Shown here: piece by piece, positions 20,312 to 43,689 of the stretch | Numbering within the stretch: position 1 is the stretch's first letter | Layout: every line of letters starts with the position of its first letter | Assembly: GCA_017499595.2 (NCBI GenBank) | Contig: CM039009.1 | Span: forward strand, 620,001-684,000 | Direction: 5' to 3' | DNA length: 64,000 nucleotides | DNA from: Psilocybe cubensis | Taxonomy: Eukaryota | The notes under the pieces: model-generated | Database searches by the model: none | Told to the model about the DNA's origin: nothing | Seen by the model: only the letters and a program-made list of their open reading frames with translations | Program-made: the position numbers and the translations under genes

Positions 20312-20383
20312 GGTCATGTAGCTCAGTGGTAGAGCATTGGCATATATAGCCGGGAGTCACTGGTTCAATTCCAGTCCTGACCG
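20312..20383 (+). ncRNA. tRNA-like element in TRIM LTR 2
   Basis: Identical to 20056-20127. Confidence 0.85.
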
Positions 20384-20441
20384 TATCTTTTCCGTCATCA
20401 CCGAAAACATGAATAACGGCTTCGTATTCCAACACACCCCC

Positions 20442-20855
20442 TCAACGCATCGCCTTGCTAACCGCTTTCGGATCGACGAGACCAAGGCGAGCAACTCCTT
20501 CAAGAAACTTGACACGTTGAAGTGGTTTCGTGAGGATGTCAGCCGGATTCTCTTTGCCGGGAATATGTAAAATGTGAAAAGATTTTGCTTCTATGTGAGA
20601 CCGAATGAAATGATATCTGATGTCAATGTGCTTGGCTTTGGAGTGTGATGAGTCGTTCTCGCATAGAGATTTGGCGCCTTCATTGTCAGTGGCGACGACC
20701 AAGGGGTTTGGACATGTGATGTGAAGATATGAGAGCGACGACCCTAACCATAGGCCCTCCTGAACTGTTCGCGTTAACGCAATATACTCGGACTCCGTCG
20801 AACTCGTCGATATGCATGTCTGTGTCTTCGACGACCAACTTAAAGGACCACCCGC
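20442..20855 (-). pseudogene. Copia RNase H C-terminal fragment of copy 1, separated from RT by the Gypsy insertion
   Basis: GGPLSWSSKTQ…STESEY…TDNEGA…KHIDIRYHFIR…NPADILTK, matching the end of ORF 37289-39649. Confidence 0.92.
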
Positions 20856-22477
20856 TATCATACCCCAATCCTGATTGGAGATGAGATGTTCATTTTGGAT
20901 CTACACACGACGCCCTCAACCCAAGCAGTCATTCTTTCCATAAGTCATCCACACATCTTATCTTATCAACACTTGTCACATGGGAGCCACGTTATTCCGG
21001 ATCATGTCACTTCGTCAGATCATCAAGGCTATGCGACGGATCAGTCAACCATCAAACTGCATAGCTTTCAACACTGCCTTGCATAGCCGGACTGTCAACT
21101 CTATTTTTATCAATTCAATGGTCTTACTCAGCGTCAGGCTGCGGATTACTCATTCCAACTTAGTTTTGGTTTGTCTTACTCATCCTTTTGTGTTTATTTA
21201 TATCTTTTCTATTGTCTGTTGCGCTTTTATTGTCTTTGTCTTACCAATCTTCTATGCTTTCTGACTCATCCTTGCTTCTTTTATCTAATCTGTATTACCA
21301 TTCACCTTCGTCATACACTTCTTTCTTACTCATCCTATTCATTTCTTATCTGTCGTCGTGTCGATATTGACATGTCTTATTGTTCTTGCTTATTGTTACA
21401 CTTGCGTAGCCTCATTCTTGACACTTTGTACAGTATATGACTCGGTTTTCAGTAGCTTAGATTGGTATTTCGTTCACGTAGCTTTTAGTATAAAAGCTGT
21501 AGTAGAATTACACGAAATGACAGGAAAGTTACACCCAGTCCACACTTTCTTCAAAGCAAGTCAATTTTCATCCAAGTCAAGTCAATTTCAAGTCAATCCA
21601 CATCGATTCATTTCAATTCCAAGCTCAAGTTCAAGCCAAGCCCAAACCCAAGTCCAATTCAGTCATCAGTTCCACCCTCCGTCGAGACCAAGTTTACTTC
21701 CATTCATCCGAAGTCATCTCGCTTTCCATTAAGAGAGGATTTCATCCGAGACCAGTCATCCTCCTCATCCAACGCCTCTTCTTCTCAGCGTTGAATATCC
21801 AACTTCTATCCAGACCTCCAGTACTTCCCTACTTCCTCTCCTCCATTCAATCCGTCACCGCTCCTACTCTTTCTACACCTTCCAACCATCGCCGTTAGAA
21901 GTGTATTCAAGACATCCTTTCCCTCCGTCAACTCATCTGGAGCGATTTCATTCGAGACAGACTTAGTCTTTCATCCTCGATTCAGTCAATACTCCTATAG
22001 CTTCATTCCAAGCTTCAGAAAGATTGTCAATTTAAAGACACTTTCACCATTCTTCAAGATTCAGCCCGTTAACGACATTCCGACTCCTAGTCATCTTCTT
22101 ATCTCCCCTCGGAACATTCCCCACTCACTTCAGACAACCCCTCTAAGATTCACATTTATTGATTTCTCATACGCAATCTACGCATCTTCTTCACGCTTTC
22201 CATATACACCCGCCATCCAATTCCACGGTTCCATCCCATTTTCGGAAGGCTTATTTACTATCGTACCCAGACGACCCGGTTATCCTCTTCTTACTATTTC
22301 GCTTTCATTACCCTTCACAATCCACACCATCCTAATCTACTTAAATCCTAGGCAGCGTCCTCCCTTAAGAAACTTAGGAGAAGGTTTCGTCCTATCCAGT
22401 CTGGACCACTCTTTCCCTGGGGTTTGTGTTTGTTGGATTACATATAGTTTATAACCAATCACAAACTTCGATCTTCA
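20856..22477 (+). repeat. Gypsy 5' LTR (TA…CA)
   Basis: Direct repeat of 30702-32323 (offset 9846) with identical ORF-track translations. Candidate TATA box TATAAAAG at 21489. Confidence 0.95.
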
Positions 22478-22610
22478 TCTGGAGCCCACCGCGAGGGAGG
22501 GTTAATTAGGATTTTGTATTAGGAACACAGCAATCTACCACTTTATCACTTCCATTCCATCCATTTCGACTCTTTTTCTTTACAGGTTACTTCGCTTTGC
22601 TGGTCTATTC

Positions 22611-22643
22611 TCTAGGCAACTCTAGGCAACAATTCTAGGCAAC
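22611..22643 (+). repeat. Three copies of TCTAGGCAAC in the Gypsy leader
   Basis: TCTAGGCAAC TCTAGGCAAC AAT TCTAGGCAAC between the PBS and gag. Confidence 0.8.
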
Positions 22644-22672
22644 ACTTTCTGACTCTGTAACTGGTTTACGCT

Positions 22673-26557: not shown

Positions 26558-26572
26558 CTATCTGGACGGTGC

Positions 26573-29500: not shown

Positions 29501-30643
29501 CTTGGACATCGAGGAGTATACGGTGTGTTTGGAGTTATTCGCATTCGGTTTTTCTGGCCATTTCTTTTTCAGGATATCAAGCATCATCTCGCTACTTGCC
29601 ATGAATGTCAGATCAGATCCACCAAGAAAAGCGAAGTTCCTATCACTATCACAGCTCCCCCAACTATCTTCACTATCATCAATGTCGACGTCATGTACAT
29701 GCCCAAATCTGGACGCTTCCGATACGTAGTCCTAGCCCGAGACGACTTATCACGTGCACCTGAAGGACGTGCCCTCAAGTCTTTACGTTCCGAAGAGCTG
29801 GCCACTTTCTTTTGGGAAGAAGTCATATGCCGATATGGTGCTATTGTTATTGTACGCACGGACAATGGAGTAGAAGTCTCTGGCGCTTTCAGTCTTTTGA
29901 TGGAAAAGTACGGCATTCCTCAAGTTCGCATTTCTCCTTACAACTCTAAAGCCAATGGATCTATTGAACGTGGTCACATTGACTTCCGTGAATCCATTCT
30001 CAAAGCTTGCGGCAACCGACCTCTAGACTGGCCACAGTACGTTCATCACACACTCTTCTCTGACAAATGCATCACTCGACGCTCTACTGGACATTCCCCT
30101 TTCTACGTCATGCATGGTGTTCATCCTGTTCTTCCATTCGATCTCCTTGAAGCCACATTTCTAGTTGATGGATTCCGACAAGGAATGAGTTCCGAAGATC
30201 TCTTAGCTCTCCGTGTTCGACAACTCATGAAACGAGATGAAGACTTAGCCAACATAGCCGACGTTCTGAAACAATCACGACTTCAATCCAAAGCTACTTT
30301 TGAACGACGATTTGCTCGACGTCTTCGACAAGAAAGCTTCAAGTTTGGTGATCTAGTCCTCGTTAGGAACAGTCAAGTCGAGAAGGAGATGAATCGCAAG
30401 CACAAGCCACGATACCTTGGACCTTACGAAGTTGTACGACAGACACGAGGAGGATCATATGTGCTTAGAGAACTTAATGGTACGCAACTGGCTCAAGGCG
30501 TAGCTGCTTTCCGACTTCTTCGCTATTTTCCACGAGACGGTTCAGTCATTCCTCGACCTCAGCTAGACCGGATGATCAGAGAACTTGGACACGAGAGTGA
30601 GGAAGATGAAGACACATGGAGCGACGATATGGACAATTTCTAA
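26573..30643 (+). CDS. pol: Gypsy Pol (RT, RNase H, integrase); in frame with gag-PR across one TGA
   Basis: RT: RLVHDL, DLYWGY, MPMGYTN, FIDD. RNase H: LAVDTS, KLELYG. IN: HEELGH…CHEC, VDVMYM, RTDNG, ANGSIER and GPY. Confidence 0.95.
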   Translation: MDISLLPQCPLFVLRSPQFFFVTFAVAGVSSSSSLCLYSTSHFISTFCVSLFHFTDTYVDFSFVQRVLERLHFSFMRLFLTFTLSMATPRHTTFSFTFYFHFLSTLSICMYVDRKVVKLTFIYSSLLFICSTPASPLQSANKSSGHLLQSSWRNTRNLPKECYTESLSPIYTTITPPIHLELLQNREGLHLIHKERKIKLTDKIRRTTTPLPLMGQDLQKFRIDQSIYARSWSLNSDITAKPTVNRTNSARSSSSPTIGFVFTAASGSTLSTFRASMNQFISPILSPSSANTAYKRVDRKVRPINRVTPESAKVIRRIPVDPLLSLPPLPLHPPAFTPTPRLTLERIQSMNINANKFLWPEEEKLFLHILKLNERSLAFHQSERGTFSEEYFSPYIFPVEDHEPWVVRNIPIPPGIKDQVISLLREKIDAGVYEPSQAPYRSPIFWVKKKTSGAIRLVHDLQILNSISYRDAGVPPVLDDFVVPFAGHSIYTVFDLYWGYDARKIHPMSRDLTTFQSPIGPLRLTSMPMGYTNAVAEFQACTTFILRDEIPHVANVFIDDVPIKGPPTQYLDEDGNPETLPENPGIRRFVWEHAQDVHRVMHRMGCAGATFSGPKTQLAQPKVLILGQLCTPDGRLPDQSKIQKVTDWPRPKSVHDIRSFLGLCGTMRVWIRNYSALVRPLTELYRKDEPFVWTQQREDSFQTLKEIISNPPVLTSIDYSSDRPVILAVDTSHIAIGIILYQLDKEGIRRPVRYGSISLNPREARYSQPKLELYGLFRALREFRLYLIGVKNLYVEVDAKYIKGMLNQPDLQPSASMNRWIQGILLFDFKLIHVKAGNHRGPDGLSRRQPTSEELEEPQEDDDWLDDIALLNTVKFFPTFLFTPSSMPSYDSISLPSFIASSSSQERTLRQILQFLTDQTIPPFPNLQSRRRFLARATQYYLKDDQLYRRRQGRPPLLVILDPDKRRLILTQAHEELGHRGVYGVFGVIRIRFFWPFLFQDIKHHLATCHECQIRSTKKSEVPITITAPPTIFTIINVDVMYMPKSGRFRYVVLARDDLSRAPEGRALKSLRSEELATFFWEEVICRYGAIVIVRTDNGVEVSGAFSLLMEKYGIPQVRISPYNSKANGSIERGHIDFRESILKACGNRPLDWPQYVHHTLFSDKCITRRSTGHSPFYVMHGVHPVLPFDLLEATFLVDGFRQGMSSEDLLALRVRQLMKRDEDLANIADVLKQSRLQSKATFERRFARRLRQESFKFGDLVLVRNSQVEKEMNRKHKPRYLGPYEVVRQTRGGSYVLRELNGTQLAQGVAAFRLLRYFPRDGSVIPRPQLDRMIRELGHESEEDEDTWSDDMDNF

Positions 30644-30701
30644 TCTATCCCCCCCTTCCTTCCGCAACCGGGGACGGTTGATTTCTCAAGTTTGGGACGG
30701 A

Positions 30702-32323
30702 TATCATACCCCAATCCTGATTGGAGATGAGATGTTCATTTTGGATCTACACACGACGCCCTCAACCCAAGCAGTCATTCTTTCCATAAGTCATCCACAC
30801 ATCTTATCTTATCAACACTTGTCACATGGGAGCCACGTTATTCCGGATCATGTCACTTCGTCAGATCATCAAGGCTATGCGACGGATCAGTCAACCATCA
30901 AACTGCATAGCTTTCAACACTGCCTTGCATAGCCGGACTGTCAACTCTATTTTTATCAATTCAATGGTCTTACTCAGCGTCAGGCTGCGGATTACTCATT
31001 CCAACTTAGTTTTGGTTTGTCTTACTCATCCTTTTGTGTTTATTTATATCTTTTCTATTGTCTGTTGCGCTTTTATTGTCTTTGTCTTACCAATCTTCTA
31101 TGCTTTCTGACTCATCCTTGCTTCTTTTATCTAATCTGTATTACCATTCACCTTCGTCATACACTTCTTTCTTACTCATCCTATTCATTTCTTATCTGTC
31201 GTCGTGTCGATATTGACATGTCTTATTGTTCTTGCTTATTGTTACACTTGCGTAGCCTCATTCTTGACACTTTGTACAGTATATGACTCGGTTTTCAGTA
31301 GCTTAGATTGGTATTTCGTTCACGTAGCTTTTAGTATAAAAGCTGTAGTAGAATTACACGAAATGACAGGAAAGTTACACCCAGTCCACACTTTCTTCAA
31401 AGCAAGTCAATTTTCATCCAAGTCAAGTCAATTTCAAGTCAATCCACATCGATTCATTTCAATTCCAAGCTCAAGTTCAAGCCAAGCCCAAACCCAAGTC
31501 CAATTCAGTCATCAGTTCCACCCTCCGTCGAGACCAAGTTTACTTCCATTCATCCGAAGTCATCTCGCTTTCCATTAAGAGAGGATTTCATCCGAGACCA
31601 GTCATCCTCCTCATCCAACGCCTCTTCTTCTCAGCGTTGAATATCCAACTTCTATCCAGACCTCCAGTACTTCCCTACTTCCTCTCCTCCATTCAATCCG
31701 TCACCGCTCCTACTCTTTCTACACCTTCCAACCATCGCCGTTAGAAGTGTATTCAAGACATCCTTTCCCTCCGTCAACTCATCTGGAGCGATTTCATTCG
31801 AGACAGACTTAGTCTTTCATCCTCGATTCAGTCAATACTCCTATAGCTTCATTCCAAGCTTCAGAAAGATTGTCAATTTAAAGACACTTTCACCATTCTT
31901 CAAGATTCAGCCCGTTAACGACATTCCGACTCCTAGTCATCTTCTTATCTCCCCTCGGAACATTCCCCACTCACTTCAGACAACCCCTCTAAGATTCACA
32001 TTTATTGATTTCTCATACGCAATCTACGCATCTTCTTCACGCTTTCCATATACACCCGCCATCCAATTCCACGGTTCCATCCCATTTTCGGAAGGCTTAT
32101 TTACTATCGTACCCAGACGACCCGGTTATCCTCTTCTTACTATTTCGCTTTCATTACCCTTCACAATCCACACCATCCTAATCTACTTAAATCCTAGGCA
32201 GCGTCCTCCCTTAAGAAACTTAGGAGAAGGTTTCGTCCTATCCAGTCTGGACCACTCTTTCCCTGGGGTTTGTGTTTGTTGGATTACATATAGTTTATAA
32301 CCAATCACAAACTTCGATCTTCA
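30702..32323 (+). repeat. Gypsy 3' LTR
   Basis: Direct repeat of 20856-22477. Confidence 0.95.
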
Positions 32324-34313
32324 CCGCCACCATCCACACAAACCCTGAGACCGAAGCTCGCGATTCTTTGTTGCCTGCCCAATCGGCGTCAGAGTAACCT
32401 TGAAGAGGTTGCGATGCAGCCTCTCCTCCGTAGTGGAGACGATAATTGCGTGTCCCGCTGAGGTATCGGAGAACCCGTTTGGCTGTGGCAAAGTGCCGAG
32501 GTTGAGGGTTTGATGCGTGCTGCGAAAGTAATAGGACAGCGATGGAGATGTCGGGACAGGAGTGTCGTTGAATAAAAAGGAGGGATCCGATGAGGCGTTG
32601 AAAGGTAGGCTTGATGTTTGGTATTTCGGGGAATGTGTCGGCTTCCTGTCCAAAGATGTTATTGGCGTCGAGTGGGGTGGAAACTGGGCTGCAGTTGAGG
32701 AGTCCATATTCGTCTAGGATGCTCTCAATGTAGGATGTTTGATGAATCCAGATTTCTCGAGTAGACGTGTTTCTCTCGTATTGCACCCCGAGGTATGAGC
32801 GAAGAGGGCCGAGGTCCTTGATGCCAAATCTCTTATTGACTTTGGATTTAGCGTGGTCAAGAAATGCTTTTGAATTAGATGCTCCGAGTCCATCGTCGAC
32901 GTGAATGCACAACCAACAGTGCACCTGTTCCCCATTCCAAAGTCCCTCAAAGACAAAGGTAGCGTGGTCTTTCTCTGATCGTTTAAACCCTATGTCCTGC
33001 AGTGTTGAGCGGATCAGGATGTACCATACACTACTCGCCTGTTTTAAGCCGTAGAGTGACTTCTTCAGTCTCCAAATGCCTTTCGGGAAAGGAGAGGTGT
33101 AGCCCGGAGGACACCTCATGTAAATAACCTCCGATAAATCTCCCCACAGGAATGCTCTCGTGGCGTCGAAGCATTCTATGTGCCACCCATTGAGGGTCGC
33201 ATGCACAACGATTGCTCTGATGCTGACCGATTTAGATACGGGCGCGAATGTTTCGTGATAATCGATGAGGTATTTTTGGGAGAATCCCTGAGCAACGAGC
33301 CTTGCCTTATAGATTAGATTTCCCTGATCGTCAATTTTGAATTCAAAAACCCATCGACATCCAATCGTATGTGTCCCATCTACGAAGCACTCGTCCGTGT
33401 ACACATTCATTGACCTGAGCATATCCAGCTCCTTTTCGACGACTTTTTGCCATTGGTCTGCATCAGGACGCTGCATTGCTTCAGCGTAGTTGGCCGGCGG
33501 GATTTTGAGATCGTAATTGGGAGAGTGAGGATTTCGTTTCTGCTCGCTCCTGATGGAGAGTAAAGTTGCCTCAAAAAAGGCTTCCTTATCTCGTGCCAGG
33601 TAGTCTTCGACGTCCAGTGAGACTAGTGATACGTCTTCGGAGTTATCGTGGGGATGATGTTCCAGCATTCCGACGGAGCACAAGGAGATGAAAGGATTTT
33701 CATCGTCACCCCCTTGCTCAGTGGAAGGCTGAACAGTTGACGAACGTTCTGCACTTGTGGCTCTACGTGAGGCTATGATGCTGTCGCTTTTCGCCTTTTC
33801 TGCTTCGCGGAATTGATTGTATAAAATTCCTCTTGAGGTTGGATGTCGTTCTCTTGAGGAAGAGCGCGGTGGCGGTAAGACACGATGAGCGATAGGAGTT
33901 GGAGGTTGTTGAGGAGGATGGGAAGGGGGAGTAGATGGAATAACATCTATATCTACGGAAGAAATAGAAGATGAAGAGGGAACAGAAGAAGAAGAAGGTT
34001 CAAGAAGTTGGGATGAGTCCAAGTCAGAAGGTGTAGATACAAGATTTGGAACGGATGTTGTGACTGGGGATGAATAAGAAGAAGATGAAGTAGGAGAGGA
34101 AGAAGATAAAACATCGGAGAAGAAGGGTAAGGATGAGTAGTCTATGGGAATAGAAGAATTATTGTTAGAAAGAAAGGGCATGTTTTCGTCAAACATAGCA
34201 TTAGAAGAATGAAAGAAGTGTCCTGTTTCAAGATGTCGGAACCTGTACCCTTTTCCGCCAGGCGGGTAACCCATAAATCTGCACTGTACAGATTTTGCGC
34301 CGAGCTTTGATTG
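32324..34313 (-). pseudogene. pol: Copia copy 1 IN C-terminus and RT, cut at the start of RNase H by Gypsy
   Basis: KARLVAQG, LYGLKQ, HVDD and YSDADWA, then the reading frame runs into the Gypsy LTR. Confidence 0.92.
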
Positions 34314-36599
34314 CTACTCCTCCGGAACGTGGACAAAGGCGCGGCATCCCCATACACGGAGATGGGATAGATTGGGAGGTCGATGATACATGTTTTCAAA
34401 TGGGGTGATACCATCTTCATCCGTGCTTGTTATGTTGAGAAGGTATGACACGGTGAGAGCAGCTTCGCCCCAGTAGGTCAATGGAAGTTGAGCAGTGGTA
34501 ATCATTGCGAGCATTCGACCCTGAATGGTTCGCATGAAGCGTTCGATTTCCCCGTTCATCCAGTGTTCACGGGCCGGCGTGACCTCTTGTTCAATTCCCA
34601 CCTCTAACAAGTAGGCAGCAAAACTACCCTTCCACTCCGGACCTCCATCACAGCGGAAACGCTTAATCTTGAAACCCGTGCGCGTCTCCCAGCGCGCTTG
34701 CACAATCTTGAAGGCCTCTAGCATGGTGTCGGCAGTCTTGTCAGCAGTAAGTTGAACGTTATTGACTTTCATTCCAGCACACCGGAAGGCAACAAAATAT
34801 TCTTTGTGATGTGGTGTCTGCACCGGAAAAGGACCACACGTGTCAGCTACAACAAGTTCGAGAGGTTGATAGGCGCGCTGGCCAAGTGAGCTTGGCGGAT
34901 GCGGGGTAGCGGTGTGCTTGGCGACAATACACGGTTCGCATTTTATGTTGTCGTCTTTAACATCGGCTCTCATTACCCTCTTGACCAACATACGCGTAGC
35001 CTGCTCTCCAGGATGACCAAGACGAAGGTGATGCAAGTACATGGATTCCTGAACTTTCACAAACATCGCTCGTTCACCTGTAGAGTTGTAAGATTGTGGT
35101 ACGAAGACGGCATTGTCGACTGCGAATAGGCCATGAATCAACGAAGCGGAAGCAAATGCCACTCCCCGTTTGGAAAGATGAATTCCGTGACCAGGTTGGA
35201 AATTGCAACCGATCTCTGCAATGTATAGACGACTAACAGAGAGTAGGTTAACAGCCGCTGAAGGAGCATGAAGACAGTTATTCAATTTGAGCCTGATGGT
35301 CTTGCCGTTGTAGGTGACATTAAGGATACAGATTCCTCCACCTTGAGTTCGGAGAGTCCCAAGATTCGCCGTCGTGACATTCCTGGCGTCACTTTCGGAG
35401 TAGGTGTGGAACAAGTGACGAGATTTAATGATATGAGAGGTGGCACCAGAGTCGAGTAAAATTGAGGTTGATAGGAAGGATTTCGTATTGACGGATGCAA
35501 CGAGGTTATCGTGAGTGCTATTCTGCTCGTCTCCGATTTCTTCAATTAATGCACAGGAAATTTCGCCGCTGGTATCAAGATTAGTGGAATCGACTGCTAT
35601 TGAAGCCATTTCAGCCTTTTTCGCGGCGGCAGCTGCACGATATGCCGGTCCCTGGCCCTCCATGCCTCCACCCTTGGCCCAACAGTGCTCTTTATCGTGC
35701 GAACGATTCTTGCAATTGGTGCATCGCACTCCGTTTGGGTTGTTGGCGTGTTTGGCAATGGGCCGGTTATCATTGGAGAAGTTTGAATATTCTGAACCGG
35801 GAGGATGGCGCTTAGAACCTGCTTCTGCTTCTAAACGCTGGCATTCGATGGTTAGGCGCGATATTATCCTTTCAAGAGCAGTATTTGGAGCAGAAGGTGT
35901 CCTTCCTTCATCAACTGCGGCTTTATCCCTGTCTAACGTGTCTTGATATAGCTGTATCATCAATTGTTTAAAGTTGGGCCATACACCTGAAGACGGAAGA
36001 CCTCGAATGATATGGTGAATGATGTCGCCCTCTGGATAGTCAACACCCATGTCCTTCAGGCGCTCCCTGCCAGTACGAAACTCTCCAAGGTACTTCTCTA
36101 TTTCAGTGTAGTCCTTGAGTTTAATTGACGCGAGTTTCTCCTTGATAGCAAACTGAGCGTTGATATCGACTCGGGCATATCTTGTCATGATTTGGGCCCA
36201 CAACATTCGTGCGGTAACGTCTTCCCCTACGCTTAAGTTCGACTTGACTAATGCTGACACTTTTCGGGTGATCAGCGTTTTAGCGCTATCGTCGTCGCTC
36301 CACCACTTCCTATAGGCAGTGATAACCTCGTCGGACGCGTCGTTTGCTGGTTCAGCGGGTTTGGGTGACACAGGGTACCTTGCGGTTCGGCTTTCTGATC
36401 CCTCGATGTGACCATAGACGCCACAGTCTTTTAGGATGTTCCTCATGTCATCTCTCCACGCGATGAAATTAGACGTTCCTTCAAGGTTGACAATGTGGTC
36501 GACTTTCGCGTTTGCAGGTGTGATCTTATTGTTCATTGTGAAGTTGTTGATGGTGGTGTGAACAGCGTTCGGAATTTCTCCTTCTACGGATGATGACAT
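34314..36599 (-). CDS. gag-pol: Copia copy 1 Gag-protease-integrase ORF ending at an in-frame TAG
   Basis: CTNCKNRSHDKEHC knuckle, LLDSGATSH protease, HLRLGH…CEPC zinc motif, and ADTCG / RCDGG / NGEIER DDE core. Confidence 0.93.
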   Translation of the reverse strand: MSSSVEGEIPNAVHTTINNFTMNNKITPANAKVDHIVNLEGTSNFIAWRDDMRNILKDCGVYGHIEGSESRTARYPVSPKPAEPANDASDEVITAYRKWWSDDDSAKTLITRKVSALVKSNLSVGEDVTARMLWAQIMTRYARVDINAQFAIKEKLASIKLKDYTEIEKYLGEFRTGRERLKDMGVDYPEGDIIHHIIRGLPSSGVWPNFKQLMIQLYQDTLDRDKAAVDEGRTPSAPNTALERIISRLTIECQRLEAEAGSKRHPPGSEYSNFSNDNRPIAKHANNPNGVRCTNCKNRSHDKEHCWAKGGGMEGQGPAYRAAAAAKKAEMASIAVDSTNLDTSGEISCALIEEIGDEQNSTHDNLVASVNTKSFLSTSILLDSGATSHIIKSRHLFHTYSESDARNVTTANLGTLRTQGGGICILNVTYNGKTIRLKLNNCLHAPSAAVNLLSVSRLYIAEIGCNFQPGHGIHLSKRGVAFASASLIHGLFAVDNAVFVPQSYNSTGERAMFVKVQESMYLHHLRLGHPGEQATRMLVKRVMRADVKDDNIKCEPCIVAKHTATPHPPSSLGQRAYQPLELVVADTCGPFPVQTPHHKEYFVAFRCAGMKVNNVQLTADKTADTMLEAFKIVQARWETRTGFKIKRFRCDGGPEWKGSFAAYLLEVGIEQEVTPAREHWMNGEIERFMRTIQGRMLAMITTAQLPLTYWGEAALTVSYLLNITSTDEDGITPFENMYHRPPNLSHLRVWGCRAFVHVPEE

Positions 36600-36868
36600 T
36601 TTGATATGATTTTGTCAAGTGAGATGTATGTGAGATTTGACAATGAGTAGAACTGGTGCTCTCTAAGGAAACACTATGCGAGCCTGAATGCTGAGTTCCG
36701 TCTGTCTTCGTTTAGTTCAGGCGTCCTTCTACGGATGATGACATTTTGATATGATTTTGTCAAGTGAGATGTATGTGAGATTTGACAATGAGTAGAACTG
36801 GTGCTCTCTAAGGAAACACTATGCGAGCCTGAATGCTGAGTTCCGTCTGTCTTCGTTTAGTTCAGGCG
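36579..36868 (-). repeat. Perfect 2 x 145-bp tandem duplication of the Copia leader and gag start (copy 1)
   Basis: 36579-36723 equals 36724-36868. Confidence 0.95.
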
Positions 36869-36886
36869 CGACCGGGGCCCATAACC

Positions 36887-37281
36887 TGAAGAAAACTGAA
36901 ATATACGGTTAATCTCAGCCGAAAGAAACAAAGGGCTAAATATATTGAACCTGAAATATACGGTTAATCTACAAGACGAGTTAGTCATGTTTTATGAACA
37001 ACAAAGACTGGATTTACCTCAGCCGAAAGAAACAAAGGGCTGAGGTAACAGGAATGAGATGCTACGGTATATGTGAGGATTGAATGGATGAAGAAGTTGA
37101 TGAGAAAAATAAGGAAGGTGATGCGTTGTACGTTGAAGGAAAGAAAGCTGCTGAACTCAGCAGTTGAACAGGGGCTATCGGAGCGACTGGTCCGATTACG
37201 AATAAGGAAGTTCTAGGTGTAAAAAAGGAAATGGTGAATGCACGAATCGGAAAACATGAATAACGGCTTCGTATTCCAACA
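36887..37281 (-). repeat. Complete 395-bp Copia LTR shared by the two tandem copies
   Basis: Minus strand TGTTGG…TTCTTCA, preceded by PPT GAGGGGGTG and followed by PBS GGTTATGGGCCCC. Confidence 0.93.
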
Positions 37282-37288
37282 CACCCCC

Positions 37289-39688
37289 TCAACGCATCGC
37301 CTTGCTAACCGCTTTCGGATTGACGAGACCAAGGCGAGCAACTCCTTCAAGAAACTTGACACGTTGAAGTGGTTTCGTGAGGATGTCAGCCGGATTCTCT
37401 TTGCCGGGAATATGTAAAATGTGAAAAGATTTTGCTTCTATGTGAGACCGAATGAAATGATATCTGATGTCAATGTGCTTGGCTTTGGAGTGTGATGAGT
37501 CGTTCTCGCATAGAGATTTGGCGCCTTCATTGTCAGTGGCGACGACCAAGGGGTTTGGACATGTGATGTGAAGATATGAGAGCGACGACCCTAACCATAG
37601 GCCCTCCTGAACTGTTCGCGTTAACGCAATATACTCGGACTCCGTCGAACTCGTCGATATGCATGTCTGTGTCTTCGACGACCAACTTAAAGGACCACCC
37701 GCCACCATCCACACAAACCCTGAGACCGAAGCTCGCGATTCTTTGTTGCCTGCCCAATCGGCGTCAGAGTAACCTTGAAGAGGTTGCGATGCAGCCTCTC
37801 CTCCGTAGTGGAGACGATAATTGCGTGTCCCGCTGAGGTATCGGAGAACCCGTTTGGCTGTGGCAAAGTGCCGAGGTTGAGGGTTTGATGCGTGCTGCGA
37901 AAGTAATAGGACAGCGATGGAGATGTCGGGACGGGAGTGTCGTTGAATAAAAAGGAGGGATCCGATGAGGCGTTGAAAGGTAGGCTTGATGTTTGGTATT
38001 TCGGGGAATGTGTCGGCTTCCTGTCCAAAGATGTTATTGGCGTCGAGTGGGGTGGAAACCGGGCTGCAGTTGAGGAGTCCATATTCGTCTAGGATGCTCT
38101 CAATGTAGGATGTTTGATGAATCCAGATTTCTCGAGTAGACGTGTTTCTCTCGTATTGCACCCCGAGGTATGAGCGAAGAGGGCCGAGGTCCTTGATGCC
38201 AAATCTCTTATTGACTTTGGATTTAGCGTGGTCAAGAAATGCTTTTGAATTAGATGCTCCGAGTCCATCGTCGACGTGAATGCACAACCAACAGTGCACC
38301 TGTTCCCCATTCCAAAGTCCCTCAAAGACAAAGGTAGCGTGGTCTTTCTCTGATCGTTTAAACCCTATGTCCTGCAGTGTTGAGCGGATCAGGATGTACC
38401 ATACACTACTCGCCTGTTTTAAGCCGTAGAGTGACTTCTTCAGTCTCCAAATGCCTTTCGGGAAAGGAGAGGTGTAGCCCGGAGGACACCTCATGTAAAT
38501 AACCTCCGATAAATCTCCCCACAGGAATGCTCTCGTGGCGTCGAAGCATTCTATGTGCCACCCATTGAGGGTCGCATGCACAACGATTGCTCTGATGCTG
38601 ACCGATTTAGATACGGGCGCGAATGTTTCGTGATAATCGATGAGGTATTTTTGGGAGAATCCCTGAGCAACGAGCCTTGCCTTATAGATTAGATTTCCCT
38701 GATCGTCAATTTTGAATTCAAAAACCCATCGACATCCAATCGTATGTGTCCCATCTACGAAGCACTCGTCCGTGTACACATTCATTGACCTGAGCATATC
38801 CAGCTCCTTTTCGACGACTTTTTGCCATTGGTCTGCATCAGGACGCTGCATTGCTTCAGCGTAGTTGGCCGGCGGGATTTTGAGATCGTAATTGGGAGAG
38901 TGAGGATTTCGTTTCTGCTCACTCCTGATGGAGAGTAAAGTTGCCTCAAAAAAGGCTTCCTTATCTCGTGCCAGGTAGTCTTCGACGTCCAGTGAGACTA
39001 GTGATACGTCTTCGGAGTTATCGTGGGGATGATGTTCCAGCATTCCGACGGAGCACAAGGAGATGAAAGGATTTTCATCGTCACCCCCTTGCTCAGTGGA
39101 AGGCTGAACAGTTGACGAACGTTCTGCACTTGTGGCTCTACGTGAGGCTATGATGCTGTCGCTTTTCGCCTTTTCTGCTTCGCGGAATTGATTGTATAAA
39201 ATTCCTCTTGAGGTTGGATGTCGTTCTCTTGAGGAAGAGCGCGGTGGCGGTAAGACACGATGAGCGATAGGAGTTGGAGGTTGTTGAGGAGGATGGGAAG
39301 GGGGAGTAGATGGAATAACATCTATATCTACGGAAGAAATAGAAGATGAAGAGGGAACAGAAGAAGAAGAAGGTTCAAGAAGTTGGGATGAGTCCAAGTC
39401 AGAAGGTGTAGATACAAGATTTGGAACGGATGTTGTGACTGGGGATGAATAAGAAGAAGATGAAGTAGGAGAGGAAGAAGATAAAACATCGGAGAAGAAG
39501 GGTAAGGATGAGTAGTCTATGGGAATAGAAGAATTATTGTTAGAAAGAAAGGGCATGTTTTCGTCAAACATAGCATTAGAAGAATGAAAGAAGTGTCCTG
39601 TTTCAAGATGTCGGAACCTGTACCCTTTTCCGCCAGGCGGGTAACCCATAAATCTGCACTGTACAGATTTTGCGCCGAGCTTTGATTG
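37289..39688 (-). CDS. pol: Copia copy 2 IN C-terminus, RT and RNase H (in-frame continuation after TAG 39689-39691)
   Basis: Open frame QSKLGAKSVQCRFMGYP…HVDD…YSDADWA…KHIDIRYH…ADILTK. Confidence 0.92.
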   Translation of the reverse strand, partial: QSKLGAKSVQCRFMGYPPGGKGYRFRHLETGHFFHSSNAMFDENMPFLSNNNSSIPIDYSSLPFFSDVLSSSSPTSSSSYSSPVTTSVPNLVSTPSDLDSSQLLEPSSSSVPSSSSISSVDIDVIPSTPPSHPPQQPPTPIAHRVLPPPRSSSRERHPTSRGILYNQFREAEKAKSDSIIASRRATSAERSSTVQPSTEQGGDDENPFISLCSVGMLEHHPHDNSEDVSLVSLDVEDYLARDKEAFFEATLLSIRSEQKRNPHSPNYDLKIPPANYAEAMQRPDADQWQKVVEKELDMLRSMNVYTDECFVDGTHTIGCRWVFEFKIDDQGNLIYKARLVAQGFSQKYLIDYHETFAPVSKSVSIRAIVVHATLNGWHIECFDATRAFLWGDLSEVIYMRCPPGYTSPFPKGIWRLKKSLYGLKQASSVWYILIRSTLQDIGFKRSEKDHATFVFEGLWNGEQVHCWLCIHVDDGLGASNSKAFLDHAKSKVNKRFGIKDLGPLRSYLGVQYERNTSTREIWIHQTSYIESILDEYGLLNCSPVSTPLDANNIFGQEADTFPEIPNIKPTFQRLIGSLLFIQRHSRPDISIAVLLLSQHASNPQPRHFATAKRVLRYLSGTRNYRLHYGGEAASQPLQGYSDADWAGNKESRASVSGFVWMVAGGPLSWSSKTQTCISTSSTESEYIALTRTVQEGLWLGSSLSYLHITCPNPLVVATDNEGAKSLCENDSSHSKAKHIDIRYHFIRSHIEAKSFHILHIPGKENPADILTKPLQRVKFLEGVARLGLVNPKAVSKAMR

Positions 39689-41974
39689 CTACTCCTCCGG
39701 AACGTGGACAAAGGCGCGGCATCCCCATACACGGAGATGGGATAGATTGGGAGGTCGATGATACATGTTTTCAAATGGGGTGATACCATCTTCATCCGTG
39801 CTTGTTATGTTGAGAAGGTATGACACGGTGAGAGCAGCTTCGCCCCAGTAGGTCAATGGAAGTTGAGCAGTGGTAATCATTGCGAGCATTCGACCCTGAA
39901 TGGTTCGCATGAAGCGTTCGATTTCCCCGTTCATCCAGTGTTCACGGGCCGGCGTGACCTCTTGTTCAATTCCCACCTCTAACAAGTAGGCAGCAAAACT
40001 ACCCTTCCACTCCGGACCTCCATCACAGCGGAAACGCTTAATCTTGAAACCCGTGCGCGTCTCCCAGCGCGCTTGCACAATCTTGAAGGCCTCTAGCATG
40101 GTGTCGGCAGTCTTGTCAGCAGTAAGTTGAACGTTATTGACTTTCATTCCAGCACACCGGAAGGCAACAAAATATTCTTTGTGATGTGGTGTCTGCACCG
40201 GAAAAGGACCACACGTGTCAGCTACAACAAGTTCGAGAGGTTGATAGGCGCGCTGGCCAAGTGAGCTTGGCGGATGCGGGGTAGCGGTGTGCTTGGCGAC
40301 AATACACGGTTCGCATTTTATGTTGTCGTCTTTAACATCGGCTCTCATTACCCTCTTGACCAACATACGCGTAGCCTGCTCTCCAGGATGACCAAGACGA
40401 AGGTGATGCAAGTACATGGATTCCTGAACTTTCACAAACATCGCTCGTTCACCTGTAGAGTTGTAAGATTGTGGTACGAAGACGGCATTGTCGACTGCGA
40501 ATAGGCCATGAATCAACGAAGCGGAAGCAAATGCCACTCCCCGTTTGGAAAGATGAATTCCGTGACCAGGTTGGAAATTGCAACCGATCTCTGCAATGTA
40601 TAGACGACTAACAGAGAGTAGGTTAACAGCCGCTGAAGGAGCATGAAGACAGTTATTCAATTTGAGCCTGATGGTCTTGCCGTTGTAGGTGACATTAAGG
40701 ATACAGATTCCTCCACCTTGAGTTCGGAGAGTCCCAAGATTCGCCGTCGTGACATTCCTGGCGTCACTTTCGGAGTAGGTGTGGAACAAGTGACGAGATT
40801 TAATGATATGAGAGGTGGCACCAGAGTCGAGTAAAATTGAGGTTGATAGGAAGGATTTCGTATTGACGGATGCAACGAGGTTATCGTGAGTGCTATTCTG
40901 CTCGTCTCCGATTTCTTCAATTAATGCACAGGAAATTTCGCCGCTGGTATCAAGATTAGTGGAATCGACTGCTATTGAAGCCATTTCAGCCTTTTTCGCG
41001 GCGGCAGCTGCACGATATGCCGGTCCCTGGCCCTCCATGCCTCCACCCTTGGCCCAACAGTGCTCTTTATCGTGCGAACGATTCTTGCAATTGGTGCATC
41101 GCACTCCGTTTGGGTTGTTGGCGTGTTTGGCAATGGGCCGGTTATCATTGGAGAAGTTTGAATATTCTGAACCGGGAGGATGGCGCTTAGAACCTGCTTC
41201 TGCTTCTAAACGCTGGCATTCGATGGTTAGGCGCGATATTATCCTTTCAAGAGCAGTATTTGGAGCAGAAGGTGTCCTTCCTTCATCAACTGCGGCTTTA
41301 TCCCTGTCTAACGTGTCTTGATATAGCTGTATCATCAATTGTTTAAAGTTGGGCCATACACCTGAAGACGGAAGACCTCGAATGATATGGTGAATGATGT
41401 CGCCCTCTGGATAGTCAACACCCATGTCCTTCAGGCGCTCCCTGCCAGTACGAAACTCTCCAAGGTACTTCTCTATTTCAGTGTAGTCCTTGAGTTTAAT
41501 TGACGCGAGTTTCTCCTTGATAGCAAACTGAGCGTTGATATCGACTCGGGCATATCTTGTCATGATTTGGGCCCACAACATTCGTGCGGTAACGTCTTCC
41601 CCTACGCTTAAGTTCGACTTGACTAATGCTGACACTTTTCGGGTGATCAGCGTTTTAGCGCTATCGTCGTCGCTCCACCACTTCCTATAGGCAGTGATAA
41701 CCTCGTCGGACGCGTCGTTTGCTGGTTCAGCGGGTTTGGGTGACACAGGGTACCTTGCGGTTCGGCTTTCTGATCCCTCGATGTGACCATAGACGCCACA
41801 GTCTTTTAGGATGTTCCTCATGTCATCTCTCCACGCGATGAAATTAGACGTTCCTTCAAGGTTGACAATGTGGTCGACTTTCGCGTTTGCAGGTGTGATC
41901 TTATTGTTCATTGTGAAGTTGTTGATGGTGGTGTGAACAGCGTTCGGAATTTCTCCTTCTACGGATGATGACAT
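39689..41974 (-). CDS. gag-pol: Copia copy 2 Gag-protease-integrase ORF
   Basis: Translation identical to 34314-36599. Confidence 0.93.
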   Translation of the reverse strand: MSSSVEGEIPNAVHTTINNFTMNNKITPANAKVDHIVNLEGTSNFIAWRDDMRNILKDCGVYGHIEGSESRTARYPVSPKPAEPANDASDEVITAYRKWWSDDDSAKTLITRKVSALVKSNLSVGEDVTARMLWAQIMTRYARVDINAQFAIKEKLASIKLKDYTEIEKYLGEFRTGRERLKDMGVDYPEGDIIHHIIRGLPSSGVWPNFKQLMIQLYQDTLDRDKAAVDEGRTPSAPNTALERIISRLTIECQRLEAEAGSKRHPPGSEYSNFSNDNRPIAKHANNPNGVRCTNCKNRSHDKEHCWAKGGGMEGQGPAYRAAAAAKKAEMASIAVDSTNLDTSGEISCALIEEIGDEQNSTHDNLVASVNTKSFLSTSILLDSGATSHIIKSRHLFHTYSESDARNVTTANLGTLRTQGGGICILNVTYNGKTIRLKLNNCLHAPSAAVNLLSVSRLYIAEIGCNFQPGHGIHLSKRGVAFASASLIHGLFAVDNAVFVPQSYNSTGERAMFVKVQESMYLHHLRLGHPGEQATRMLVKRVMRADVKDDNIKCEPCIVAKHTATPHPPSSLGQRAYQPLELVVADTCGPFPVQTPHHKEYFVAFRCAGMKVNNVQLTADKTADTMLEAFKIVQARWETRTGFKIKRFRCDGGPEWKGSFAAYLLEVGIEQEVTPAREHWMNGEIERFMRTIQGRMLAMITTAQLPLTYWGEAALTVSYLLNITSTDEDGITPFENMYHRPPNLSHLRVWGCRAFVHVPEE

Positions 41975-42243
41975 TTTGATATGATTTTGTCAAGTGAGAT
42001 GTATGTGAGATTTGACAATGAGTAGAACTGGTGCTCTCTAAGGAAACACTATGCGAGCCTGAATGCTGAGTTCCGTCTGTCTTCGTTTAGTTCAGGCGTC
42101 CTTCTACGGATGATGACATTTTGATATGATTTTGTCAAGTGAGATGTATGTGAGATTTGACAATGAGTAGAACTGGTGCTCTCTAAGGAAACACTATGCG
42201 AGCCTGAATGCTGAGTTCCGTCTGTCTTCGTTTAGTTCAGGCG
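41954..42243 (-). repeat. 2 x 145-bp leader duplication (copy 2)
   Basis: Same as 36579-36868 at offset 5375. Confidence 0.93.
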
Positions 42244-42480
42244 CGACCGGGGCCCATAACCTGAAGAAAACTGAAATATACGGTTAATCTCAGCCGAAAG
42301 AAACAAAGGGCTAAATATATTTCCATTCTAACATGGTAGCAGCAAACCTGTTGGCTTGCATTTGCCTCTAACCGGGCTTGCAAGGGCGGAAACCCTATGG
42401 GAGTCTGGACTTCTTAGTCACTACAGGCTAGATATCGAGTTCAGGGGGTGTGTTGACATATAACTCTCTATCTACCCATG

Positions 42481-42552
42481 GGTCATGTAGCTCAGTGGTA
42501 GAGCATTGGCATATATAGCCGGGAGTCACTGGTTCAATTCCAGTCCTGACCG
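42481..42552 (+). ncRNA. tRNA-like element in TRIM LTR 3
   Basis: Identical to 20056-20127. Confidence 0.85.
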
Positions 42553-43689
42553 TATCTTTTCCGTCATCACCTGATTGAGTGATTCTAACAGCCACCTCTA
42601 TCTTCTCTCATATCCATCACATCCATTGCCCGTGACCAACCGCCCGCTGCGCTAAGCGCATACCAAAGTCTGGTTTGTGTATGTAAGCACTCTGGCTCTT
42701 TTTAAAAGCAGCTTACCTGTCCTAGTTGACTTCCTTTCGTATCATCAATGCGCTAGCCAAGGCCCAAATACCGCAGTCATCTTAATGATGCAACAATATT
42801 CAATGTATTGCCTTCTTACAGGGAAGAACTAAATGATAGACGGCAAAAAATAACATACCTAAGTATGTAACAGAATATACTTATTTGTATAGTGGACTCG
42901 GTGCACGGTGCCAGAAGTCATTCAGGCGTAGCGGGATTGTGTGTTGCCTATCGATCACTCGGCATACCTGCCGGACGATGTTTGGTTTGTGTCTGGGCAC
43001 CTCGCTCTTCCGGCTTTCCATAGTTCCCAGGGTTCGTATTGCTCGCTTCATGCCTTTTGCCACCTGCAAGTGGTCCTCCTAATCGATGGTTCTGGCGAGA
43101 TCCTTCAAATAACAGACATTTGCTCTGTTTTCTGTAGGTACAGTTTGACACGATTCTGTGGCACTGTCCAAACGCACCCAAGAGTTGCCACTTCCACCCG
43201 ATCACTCCAGAATTGGTTAGAGGATTGGACTTATGCCCTGCCAACTTTGCAACCGACAGAGTAGAGGAATCTAAGGCTGTTGTAGTCCAGGTTGTGTTCC
43301 TGTCTGTTTATAACTGGCAATTTCCTACCCTATCAAATACGCGTCCCTATTCGCCTTGGCGGTCTTATTCCGACTTGTCAATTCTAATTCTGGAGCCTCA
43401 CGGTGGTATGTATTCACAAAATGACTGTGGATTGAGGGTTCAAGCGCTCATATCTCACTCGGCTCACTATCTACACATCATTGACTAGGCTTTTGGATTT
43501 GGAACTCGTATTGTGCTGCGATCATTGTAGGAGAGTATCGATTTTATATTGTCGTTCGTGCCCGACCCTTCCTTACCTTCCTAACACAACTCTATTCATC
43601 GGCTAAAGGGATAAAAAGGGTGTTCACGGTGCTGCAATTGAAGACTGTCTAGGCCCTAGCGGCTGGTGATATTCAATATGGCGAGTAAG

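What the first reader, a model, noticed from the sequence alone, without database searches (positions are those of the whole stretch)
36896..37041. Copia LTR contains a spliceosomal intron followed by a precisely spliced copy of the same exons
Seen on the minus strand: AGCCCTTTGTTTCTTTCGGCTGAG | GTAAATCC…GACTAAC TCGTCTTGTAG | ATTAACCGTATATTTCAG. The intron is 37017-36969 (49 nt, GT-AG, CTAAC branch site). After a 13-nt spacer the same 42 nt recur joined exactly at the splice junction (36937-36896). Inference: a spliced 5' end of the genomic RNA was copied and fixed next to the unspliced version during strand transfer. The pair could let the element keep an expression-enhancing 5' intron through reverse transcription, which would normally erase it. 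I do not know a description of this arrangement.
Basis: partly seen in the sequence, partly recalled or inferred. Interest (0 to 1): 0.82.

Follow-up and report, generated by a model that had tools for sequence, protein, structure and literature searches.

The report
Copia LTR that rebuilds its intron
A fungal Copia retrotransposon carries, inside its long terminal repeat, a short intron followed by an exact spliced copy of the two flanking exons, and this layout recurs in many unrelated-looking relatives, which suggests a way for a retroelement to keep an intron through reverse transcription.

Summary
On the minus strand the order is E1 37041-37018, a 49-nt GT..AG intron 37017-36969, E2 36968-36951, a 13-nt spacer, then the joined copy 36937-36896. 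It is the only such hit in the window, with none in 20 shuffled windows.

It lies in the 3' part of a 395-bp Copia LTR (37281-36887), just before a GGTTATGGGCCCC primer-binding site.

The layout is not a local accident:
- It recurs with different sequence in 21 of 80 related metagenome loci.
- The two copies are 1015/1032 identical within an LTR, against a median of 58% between loci.
- In a diverged subfamily seen in DNA reads, five changes appear in both copies.

So the joined copy is re-derived from spliced RNA during replication.

Best model, inferred because no RNA data exist:
- Transcription starts at E1 and the leader is spliced.
- The strong-stop cDNA anneals to the contiguous copy near the RNA 3' end.
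- The intron-bearing part is inherited from the 3' LTR copy, where a conserved hairpin hides the splice donor.

My literature searches found no description. Interest is high.

The parts
36887..37281 (-). Complete LTR (395 bp), TGTTGGAAT...TTCTTCA. It is the middle LTR shared by two tandem Copia copies.
   Evidence: The polypurine tract GAGGGGGTG lies just upstream (37290-37282) and the PBS just downstream.
37068..37071 (-). TATA core in CACATATACC, 30 nt upstream of the first base of E1. This is the putative core promoter, followed by a pyrimidine-rich tract ending CCTC.
   Evidence: By a strict pattern, 11 of 23 related LTRs have a TATA motif 29-39 nt upstream of E1. The start site itself is inferred.
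37014..37048 (-). Hairpin. The last 7 nt of U3 plus the first 4 nt of E1 pair with the last 7 nt of E1 plus GTAA of the intron, so the splice donor lies inside the stem.
   Evidence: -18.9 kcal/mol with the U3 arm (z -5.4, 0 of 200 shuffles as good) against -4.3 from +1 (z +0.46). The hairpin is conserved with compensating changes in 20 LTRs.
37018..37041 (-). E1, the first exon (24 nt). It begins at the putative start site and ends CTGAG.
36969..37017 (-). Intron 1 (49 nt): GTAAAT ... GACTAAC ... TAG.
   Evidence: In subfamily V the body has diverged while GT, a CTGAC and GTAG remain.
36951..36968 (-). E2, a mini-exon (18 nt), pyrimidine-rich, ending CAG.
36938..36950 (-). Spacer (13 nt) GTTCAATATATTT. 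In relatives it starts GTA and holds AATAY. It is the putative start of a second intron and a possible poly(A) signal.
   Evidence: The function is inferred.
36896..36937 (-). E1'E2', the exact joined copy (42 nt). Putative R, the landing site for minus strong-stop cDNA.
36887..36895 (-). TTTTCTTCA, the LTR 3' end (integrase end of U5).
   Evidence: In relatives this segment is 0-17 nt and ends ..ACA.
36874..36886 (-). Primer-binding site GGTTATGGGCCCC (continues to about 36865).
   Evidence: two exact copies, here and at 42249-42261. The related motif TTATG[AG]G[CT]CC is in 44 of 80 related loci.
42262..42324 (-). Truncated 5' LTR of the upstream Copia copy. It holds only a spacer remnant, the joined copy (42312-42271) and the LTR end.
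   Evidence: The same junction is seen at about single-copy depth in run X11 (32 reads).
37282..42261 (-). Internal part of Copia copy 1 (PBS, gag, protease-integrase, RT-RNase H), with one in-frame stop.
32324..36886 (-). Internal part of Copia copy 2, 5' portion (99.9% identical to copy 1).
20403..20855 (-). Rest of Copia copy 2 (end of pol, polypurine tract) and a 32-nt stub of its 3' LTR (20434-20403).
   Evidence: The junction is seen in 31 reads of X11.

Best explanation
The pair is the signature of a lineage of fungal Ty1/Copia elements whose LTR contains its own first exon(s) and intron(s). R, the terminal repeat needed for the first strand transfer, is a DNA-encoded copy of the spliced RNA 5' end.

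Proposed cycle:
1. Transcription starts at the first base of E1, about 30 nt after a TATA motif.
2. The leader is spliced. Intron 1 is removed. Most likely a second intron is removed too, made of the spacer plus E1'E2' (donor AG|GTA after E2, branch CTGA[GC] at the end of E1', acceptor YAG at the end of E2'). The RNA then begins E1-E2-(LTR end)-PBS.
3. Minus strong-stop cDNA, primed at the PBS, ends as the complement of E1E2. It anneals to the contiguous E1'E2' near the 3' end of the RNA.
4. Extension copies the spacer, E2, intron 1, E1 and U3 from the 3' LTR copy. That copy stays unspliced because a hairpin using the last U3 bases, which are absent from the 5' leader, buries the donor.
5. The new LTR is therefore [U3-E1-intron-E2-spacer] from the 3' end plus [E1E2] freshly copied from the spliced 5' end.

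Shown: the layout, its recurrence, the concerted evolution of the two copies, the splice-signal conservation and the hairpin. Inferred: the start site, the splicing, the poly(A) site, the second intron and the hairpin's role.

Likely benefit: a spliced 5' leader in hosts (Agaricomycetes) where introns are needed for mRNA accumulation, without losing the intron in progeny copies.
For: - Exact structure, unique in the window.
- The layout sits in the LTR directly before the PBS.
- Recurrence with other sequence. The strict detector gives 25 hits in 19 of 80 loci on the pol strand, 4 hits in 3 loci on the other strand (one is a real second element), and 0 in shuffled loci. With a mismatch-tolerant scan, 21 loci plus the window carry it.
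- Both LTRs carry it where both are present (L025, L037).
- Concerted evolution. 1015 of 1032 positions are identical between copy 1 (joined in silico) and copy 2 over 23 LTRs, 15 of them perfect. The median identity between loci is 58%.
- In subfamily V (one 382-nt contig at depth 85 in X9, and reads in X11) one change in E1 and four in E2 occur in both copies. The two L037 LTR variants differ by a TC/CT swap present in both copies.
- Intron 1 signals in 23 LTRs: YAG acceptor in 23, a CTNAY 5-20 nt before the acceptor in 21, a GTRNGT-type donor in most, length 48-60 nt.
- Second-intron marks: AG|GT after E2 in 22 of 23 (GTA 19, GTG 2, GTT 1). CTGAG lies in the last 8 nt of E1 in 22 of 23, becomes CTGAC in L026/L041, and is 12-21 nt before the YAG that ends E2 (22 of 23). 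The distance from the end of E2 to the end of E2' is 50-63 nt.
- Hairpin: mean -17.2 kcal/mol with the U3 arm, -5.8 without it and -7.5 in the copy-2 context. The GT is inside the stem in 13 of 20 with the arm and 3 of 20 without it. Arms change together.
- L002 has both copies joined in both LTRs, the by-product expected when the 3' copy is spliced.
- The host is an agaric (95% identity to Psilocybe cubensis BRF1). Abstracts report that introns are needed for expression in Cryptococcus, Ganoderma and Armillaria.
Against: - No RNA evidence at all. No listed run holding the element is RNA, and nothing was laid from the guessed RNA run. So the start site, the splicing and the poly(A) site are unobserved.
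- The window's own family has a poor second donor (GTTCAA; subfamily V has GTCAAT). Second donors in general lack G at +5.
- CTGAG is not a perfect CTRAY branch site, and its conservation could come from the hairpin and donor context alone.
- YAG at the end of E2' coincides with the LTR-end CA plus G of the PBS in the families with no extra end segment.
- Homogenisation need not happen every cycle. Rare template switches would also keep 42-nt copies alike.
- The layout is absent at 27 of 38 testable PBS sites and in 46 of 80 tree rows. On the quick tree it needs at least 5 gains or losses.
- The counts are over related elements and are not independent. Metagenome contigs may be chimeric.
Confidence: 0.6

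Rival explanations
1. Only intron 1 is spliced. The second copy stays in the leader and is bypassed by an early strand transfer, or by RT switching between the two direct repeats. The copies are kept alike by occasional unequal switching rather than by a second intron.
For: - The window family and subfamily V have weak second donors, yet still show mirrored changes.
- From established retrovirology, direct repeats are known sites of RT template switching.
- A homogenisation rate of about 1% per cycle would already exceed the mutation rate of 42 nt (inference).
Against: - A full-length cDNA made on such a leader would add one unit per cycle. No three-copy LTR was seen among the 23 LTRs or in the read joints.
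- This rival does not explain the conserved GTA after E2, the YAG at the end of E2, or the narrow 50-63 nt span.
- Early transfer alone would not need the second copy to equal the spliced exons.
Confidence: 0.2
2. The replicated RNA is unspliced, as in retroviruses. The joined copy is a recurrent, functionless by-product of occasional reverse transcription of spliced RNA.
For: - Retroviruses keep introns by packaging unspliced RNA (established knowledge).
- L002 shows that spliced templates do get copied.
Against: - Direct repeats are unstable in retroelements, yet exactly two copies persist in at least 20 sequence-distinct families across two well-supported clades.
- The copy always occupies the same place, starts at the same base as E1 and ends before the LTR end.
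- The hairpin and the spacer motifs are conserved around it.
Confidence: 0.13
3. A DNA-level accident: a local duplication followed by a deletion at AG microhomology, or an insertion into one of two tandem repeats, with no splicing involved.
For: In the source genome the intron-bearing LTR is single-copy (contig depth 9.2 in X1). This locus is a rearranged, non-canonical insertion.
Against: - The same split falls exactly at GT..AG, with branch sites, in 23 LTRs of different sequence.
- Changes are mirrored in both copies.
- No hits in the shuffled controls.
Confidence: 0.02
4. The second copy marks a second transcription start (a promoter duplication), and DNA gene conversion keeps the copies alike.
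For: The start of E1 resembles an initiator, and the spacer is AT-rich.
Against: - The AT-rich motif lies only 3-15 nt before E1', too close for a TATA box.
- The pyrimidine tract and the hairpin arm are absent before E1'.
- Gene conversion would not be expected to respect the intron boundary in every family.
Confidence: 0.03

Closest known systems
Ty5 / Drosophila copia-type Ty1/Copia elements primed by an internal part of initiator tRNA-Met (recalled, not from a call)
   Same: - Copia gene order and domains.
- TG..CA LTR, polypurine tract, and a PBS starting GGTTATG directly after the LTR.
   Different: As far as I recall, no intron inside the LTR and no internal repeat of the RNA 5' end is described for them. 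Here R appears to be a spliced product.
Retroviruses with a splice donor in or just after R (HTLV-1, foamy viruses, HIV-1 leader; recalled)
   Same: A donor lies close to the cap. The replicated RNA must be kept distinct from spliced RNA. RNA structure controls use of signals that are present at both ends.
   Different: Their intron extends into the body, and the unspliced RNA is what is packaged. Here whole introns lie inside the LTR, and a spliced copy of the exons is encoded next to them.
Split-intron retroviral vectors (Ismail et al. 2000), as described in a passage of PMC3182074
   Same: The principle is the same: a splice signal placed in the 3' LTR is copied to the 5' LTR by reverse transcription, so that the integrated copy gains a leader intron.
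   Different: That is an engineered, one-generation device with no duplicated exon copy. Here it is natural, self-renewing and lineage-wide.
Penelope-like elements that retain introns (Arkhipova et al. 2003; recalled)
   Same: Retroelements that keep a spliceosomal intron through retrotransposition, with the help of a partly tandem arrangement.
   Different: A different class: no LTRs of the U3-R-U5 type, no tRNA priming and a different reverse transcriptase. No spliced copy sits beside the intron.
BARE (barley Copia) with separate RNA pools for translation and replication (Chang et al. 2013; recalled)
   Same: A Copia element in which the form of the RNA 5' end decides its fate.
   Different: BARE uses two TATA boxes. 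It has no LTR intron and no spliced R copy.

Membership tests
Ty1/Copia LTR retrotransposon | Copia-type gag, with integrase placed before reverse transcriptase | tested here: met
   Retrotran_gag_2, Pol_BBD and gag_pre-integrs in the first ORF, RVT_2 (E 7e-52) in the second. The integrase core model 'rve' was not listed at E<=0.001.
Ty1/Copia LTR retrotransposon | LTR with TG..CA ends, a polypurine tract before it and a PBS after it | tested here: met
   GAGGGGGTG | TGTTGGAAT ... TTCTTCA | GGTTATGGGCCCC. Only the middle LTR is complete; the outer ones are stubs.
Ty1/Copia LTR retrotransposon | Target-site duplication from integrase-mediated insertion | tested here: not met
   the tandem pair replaces 10 bp of the host TRIM LTR and has truncated ends. 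This copy therefore arrived or was rearranged by another route. The family itself is not in doubt.
U2-type spliceosomal intron (for 37017-36969) | GT..AG ends, donor consensus, CTRAY branch site 10-20 nt before a YAG acceptor, and host-typical length | tested here: met
   GTAAAT, CTAAC at 12 nt, TAG, 49 nt. In 23 LTRs there are 23 YAG acceptors, 21 branch motifs and lengths of 48-60 nt.
U2-type spliceosomal intron (for 37017-36969) | Removed from RNA | not testable with these tools
   No RNA run holds the element and nothing was laid from X13. Indirect support only: exact intron-less copies and L002.
R region of an LTR retroelement (for 36937-36896) | Starts at the transcription start site | tested here: inconclusive
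   The copy starts at the same base as E1. That base lies 30 nt after a TATA core and after a pyrimidine tract. No capped 5' ends are available.
R region of an LTR retroelement (for 36937-36896) | Present at both ends of the replicated RNA and used for the first strand transfer | not testable with these tools
   Needs RNA ends and cDNA intermediates. The position directly before the LTR end and PBS fits.
Helenus (TRIM with a tRNA-like sequence in its LTRs; abstract of PMC10886601), for the flanking repeat | Short LTRs holding a tRNA-like sequence, with a PBS and polypurine tract between them, and a 5-bp target duplication in fungi | tested here: met
   140-bp LTRs with a 72-nt tRNA-like sequence (ARAGORN: Tyr, anticodon ATA), PBS TGGTAGCAGC, polypurine tract AGGGGGTG, and GCCAC on both outer flanks.

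The most novel reading that the evidence does not exclude
A clade of fungal Copia retrotransposons makes its terminal repeat R by splicing. The RNA 5' end becomes identical to a DNA-encoded exon-exon copy near the 3' end only after the leader introns are removed. Spliced RNA is therefore the replication template, yet every new copy regains the introns from the 3' LTR. A hairpin that can form only in the 3' copy switches splicing off there. This would be a natural solution to the rule that reverse transcription erases introns.
Probability: 0.45. Interest if true: 0.9.

Novelty: new variant of a known kind. Interest (0 to 1): 0.82.

Why it matters
Retroelements are thought to lose any intron that is spliced from the RNA they copy. 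That is why retroviruses must export and package unspliced RNA. If this model holds, this Copia lineage has a different solution written into the LTR.

- It would explain how such elements can be expressed in mushroom-forming fungi, where intronless genes accumulate little mRNA (abstracts).
- The DNA itself records the start site and the splice junction, so the model can be tested directly in any species with an active family.
- It offers a compact natural example of position-dependent control of one splice site by RNA structure.
- It gives a template for fungal expression or retro-vectors that regenerate a leader intron.
- LTR annotation tools and TE libraries should expect introns and internal repeats inside these LTRs.

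Tried and rejected
- No whole genome is held for this window.
- Sequencing runs: no RNA holder is listed. The guessed RNA run X13 gave nothing to lay. Neither is evidence on expression.
- Earlier findings of the scan: nothing by place, words or sequence.
- Literature: the searches found no description of an intron plus spliced copy inside an LTR. I saw only listings and abstracts, plus passages of PMC5445492, which has no mention of introns. The library holds only open-access papers and preprints, and supplements were not seen.
- Single long intron from the E1 donor to an acceptor at the E1'/E2' junction: rejected. GAG| is a poor acceptor, and this model cannot explain the mirrored E2 changes.
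- Poly(A) site right after the spacer with a homology-free jump: rejected, because no A-runs lie between the spacer and E1'.
- Second start site at E1': see the rivals.
- The negative correlation between spacer length and E1E2 length is partly an artefact of how mismatches shift the boundary. I rely only on their sum (50-63 nt).
- The depletion of AG inside E1 was seen by eye only and may be due to composition. It is not used.
- The careful tree search did not finish. The quick tree was used.

Full report
**1. The observation**

- E1, 37041-37018, is 24 nt and ends CTGAG.
- A 49-nt stretch at 37017-36969 begins GTAAAT, holds GACTAAC 12-13 nt before its end, and ends TAG.
- E2 is 36968-36951 (18 nt). 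A 13-nt spacer follows (36950-36938).
- Then come the 42 nt of E1 and E2 joined without a gap (36937-36896).

I wrote a detector for this pattern: a word, a GT..AG gap of 30-150 nt, a second word, and the two words joined within about 120 nt downstream. On the whole window, both strands, it finds this place only. It finds nothing in 20 block-shuffled windows.

**2. Where it sits**

A self-comparison and the ORFs and domains show two tandem, 99.9% identical Ty1/Copia copies on the minus strand, sharing one complete LTR.
- That LTR runs from TGTTGGAAT at 37281, just after the polypurine tract GAGGGGGTG, to TTCTTCA at 36887.
- It is followed at once by the primer-binding site GGTTATGGGCCCC.
- The pair therefore occupies the last 155 nt of the LTR, where R and U5 are expected.

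The outer LTRs are stubs.
- The upstream copy starts with part of the spacer, the joined copy and the LTR end (42324-42262).
- The downstream copy ends 32 nt into its LTR (20434-20403).
- The pair replaces 10 bp in the middle LTR of a small tRNA-bearing TRIM, so it was not inserted by integrase in its present form.
- Copy 2 is also split by an 11.5-kb Ty3/Gypsy element (20856-32323) with a 4-bp duplication.

The intron-bearing version thus exists once in the window.

**3. Reads from related genomes**

No whole genome is held for this window. Ten DNA runs of four coded organisms hold the element, and none of them is RNA. I laid four runs on 36869-37500.
- Raw reads of organism B cover the stretch evenly and show the same outer junctions at about single-copy depth (32 and 31 reads).
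- No joint removes the intron in any run.
- In the likely source run, the intron-bearing part is one contig at depth 9.2, that is, single copy.
- Organism C has one contig spanning pol, LTR and PBS with 10 substitutions and no gaps.

The most telling result concerns a diverged subfamily, which I call V. It appears as a 382-nt contig at depth 85 in organism C, against about 9.5 for single-copy sequence, and in a few reads of organism B.
- It has the same architecture at about 85% identity, with 68 letters replacing 72 over the intron and E2.
- Its differences from the window are mirrored. One A>T in E1 occurs at both 37028 and 36924. Three substitutions and one deleted G in E2 occur in both copies.
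- Its intron body differs but keeps a CTGAC and the final GTAG.

**4. Relatives**

A protein-guided scan of metagenome contigs with the RT-bearing ORF gave 80 loci at 29-62% identity. The same PBS type is present in 44 of them.

How often the layout recurs:
- The strict detector finds it 25 times in 19 of 80 loci on the pol strand. One of these, L060, I dropped as doubtful.
- It finds 4 hits in 3 loci on the other strand, one of which is a genuine second element (L030).
- It finds none in shuffled loci.
- A mismatch-tolerant scan adds L007, L026 and L041. That makes 21 loci plus the window.
- At 38 PBS sites with enough upstream sequence, 11 have the split copy with at most 4 mismatches in 26. 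The other 27 are at background, 8 or more mismatches.

The exon sequences differ freely between loci, with a median identity of 58% (range 42-83%). Within an LTR the two copies are 1015/1032 identical, and 15 of 23 LTRs are perfect.

Where both LTRs are present, both carry the pair (L025, L037). The two L037 LTR variants differ at 7 columns, 4 of which are one TC/CT swap present in both copies.

On a quick maximum-likelihood tree of 80 RT-RNase H rows (the careful search did not finish):
- The window lies in a 10-row clade (support 97) in which every row has the layout or its derivative.
- A second clade of 20 rows (support 99) has 12 with it, 6 without and 2 unknown.
- L008 has it elsewhere on the tree.
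- A 25-row clade lacks it.
- At least 5 changes of state are needed.

**5. Anatomy of the conserved design**

In order along the LTR:
- A TATA motif 29-39 nt upstream, found by a strict pattern in 11 of 23 LTRs. In the window a TATA core lies at -30.
- A pyrimidine tract ending CCTC.
- E1, 22-34 nt in the copies whose match was not cut short, ending CTGAG (22 of 23; CTGAC in L026/L041).
- Intron 1, 48-60 nt, with mostly GTRNGT donors, a CTNAY 5-20 nt before the acceptor in 21 of 23, and YAG in 23.
- E2, 11-20 nt, pyrimidine-rich, ending YAG in 22 of 23.
- A spacer of 8-26 nt that starts GT in 22 of 23 (GTA 19) and usually holds AATAY.
- The joined copy.
- A final 0-17 nt ending ..ACA, which form the LTR's terminal inverted repeat.
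- The PBS.

The joined copy always starts at the same base as E1. I read that base as the RNA 5' end recorded in DNA.

**6. The hairpin**

The 5-10 nt before E1 pair with the end of E1 and, in most families, with the GT of the donor.
- In the window the fold is -18.9 kcal/mol with the U3 arm (z -5.4; 0 of 200 shuffles as good). From +1 it is -4.3 (z +0.46). In the context of the second copy it is -9.1.
- Over 20 LTRs the means are -17.2, -5.8 and -7.5 kcal/mol. The GT is inside the stem in 13 of 20 with the arm and in 3 of 20 without it.
- The arms change together: CCTCAG/CTGAGG, AGCTCAG/CTGAGCT, AACTCAG/CTGAGTT, GTCTC/GAGAC, CGTCAG/CTGACG.
- An RNA that begins at E1 cannot form the hairpin. 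The copy in the 3' LTR can.

**7. How it most likely works**

Any model must explain five facts. There are exactly two copies. The second starts at +1 and ends before the LTR end. The copies stay identical while families diverge. The intron is kept. The first copy is followed by GTA.
- If only intron 1 were removed, a full-length strong-stop cDNA ending in the complement of E1E2 would pair with E1'E2' at the 3' end and add a unit in each cycle. No three-copy LTR was seen.
- If the cDNA paired across the looped-out intron, the intron would be lost. That is the state of L002, where both copies are joined in both LTRs.
- The model that fits is a second intron made of the spacer plus E1'E2'. Its donor is AG|GTA after E2. 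Its branch is CTGA[GC], 12-21 nt before the YAG at the end of E2'. Its length is 50-63 nt, like intron 1.
- The spliced leader is then E1-E2-LTR end-PBS. Its cDNA pairs with the contiguous E1'E2' of the 3' LTR, and extension copies the spacer, E2, intron 1, E1 and U3 from there. The second copy is thereby renewed from the first in every cycle.
- The hairpin would keep intron 1 unspliced in the 3' copy. A poly(A) site inside E1'E2', downstream of the AATAY motif, would remove the second acceptor there.

All steps involving RNA are inferred.

Weak points:
- The window's own second donor is GTTCAA, and second donors in general lack G at +5.
- CTGAG is an imperfect branch site.
- Rare template switching could also homogenise the copies.

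**8. Rationale**

A host ORF in the window is 95% identical to BRF1 of Psilocybe cubensis, and the next hits are other Agaricales. Abstracts report that introns are needed for mRNA accumulation or transgene expression in Cryptococcus, Ganoderma and Armillaria. A leader intron that survives retrotransposition would therefore be an advantage to the element.

**9. Comparison with what is known**

The element is an ordinary Copia in its genes, LTR ends, polypurine tract and PBS type.
- The engineered split-intron retroviral vectors use the same inheritance route, 3' LTR to 5' LTR (passage of PMC3182074).
- Retroviruses solve the problem by packaging unspliced RNA.
- Penelope-like elements keep introns in another way (recalled).
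- The searches found no description of an LTR with an intron and a spliced exon copy. A survey of fungal Copia elements does not mention introns.
- The library covers only open-access papers and preprints, and supplements were closed.

**10. Verdict**

This is a new variant of LTR-retrotransposon organisation and, probably, of replication. It is strongly supported by comparative sequence evidence and untested at the RNA level.

Noticed in passing
20026-20402 and 42325-42590 (+ strand): A Helenus-type TRIM arranged LTR-internal-LTR-internal-LTR. Its 140-bp LTRs hold a 72-nt tRNA-like sequence (ARAGORN: Tyr, anticodon ATA). It has PBS TGGTAGCAGC, polypurine tract AGGGGGTG and a 5-bp duplication GCCAC on the outer flanks. 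The Copia pair sits in its middle LTR, where 10 bp are lost.
   Followed up: partly
20856-32323 (+ strand): An 11.5-kb Ty3/Gypsy-type element with 1622-bp LTRs and two long ORFs (DUF4100, aspartic protease; RNase H, integrase). It is inserted in pol of Copia copy 2 with a 4-bp duplication CCGC. Its LTR starts TATCAT, not TG.
   Followed up: partly
36579-36868 and 41954-42243: An exact 145-bp tandem duplication in both Copia copies. It covers the leader after the PBS and the first codons of gag.
   Followed up: no
39650-39688 region (and 34275-34313): Both Copia copies share one in-frame stop between the integrase part and the RT part of the polyprotein.
   Followed up: no
L002:337-647 and L002:5508-5818: A relative (52% identity) whose two LTRs (99.4% alike) carry two joined copies and no intron 1. 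This is the product expected when the 3' copy is spliced before reverse transcription.
   Followed up: yes
L027:~450-500, L048:~4700-4748: In a clade without the duplicated exons, the last ~49 nt of the LTR look like a canonical intron (GTAAGT .. CTGAC .. CAACAG). Its acceptor falls exactly on the LTR/PBS border.
   Followed up: no
19167-19336 and 42855-43023: A 170-bp inverted repeat (92% identity) brackets the whole TRIM/Copia/Gypsy complex.
   Followed up: no
3605-3613 (+ strand); 2632-2722 (- strand): Another TGTTGGAAT, a possible LTR start of a further Copia-like element, and an odd tRNA call with a 4-base anticodon.
   Followed up: no
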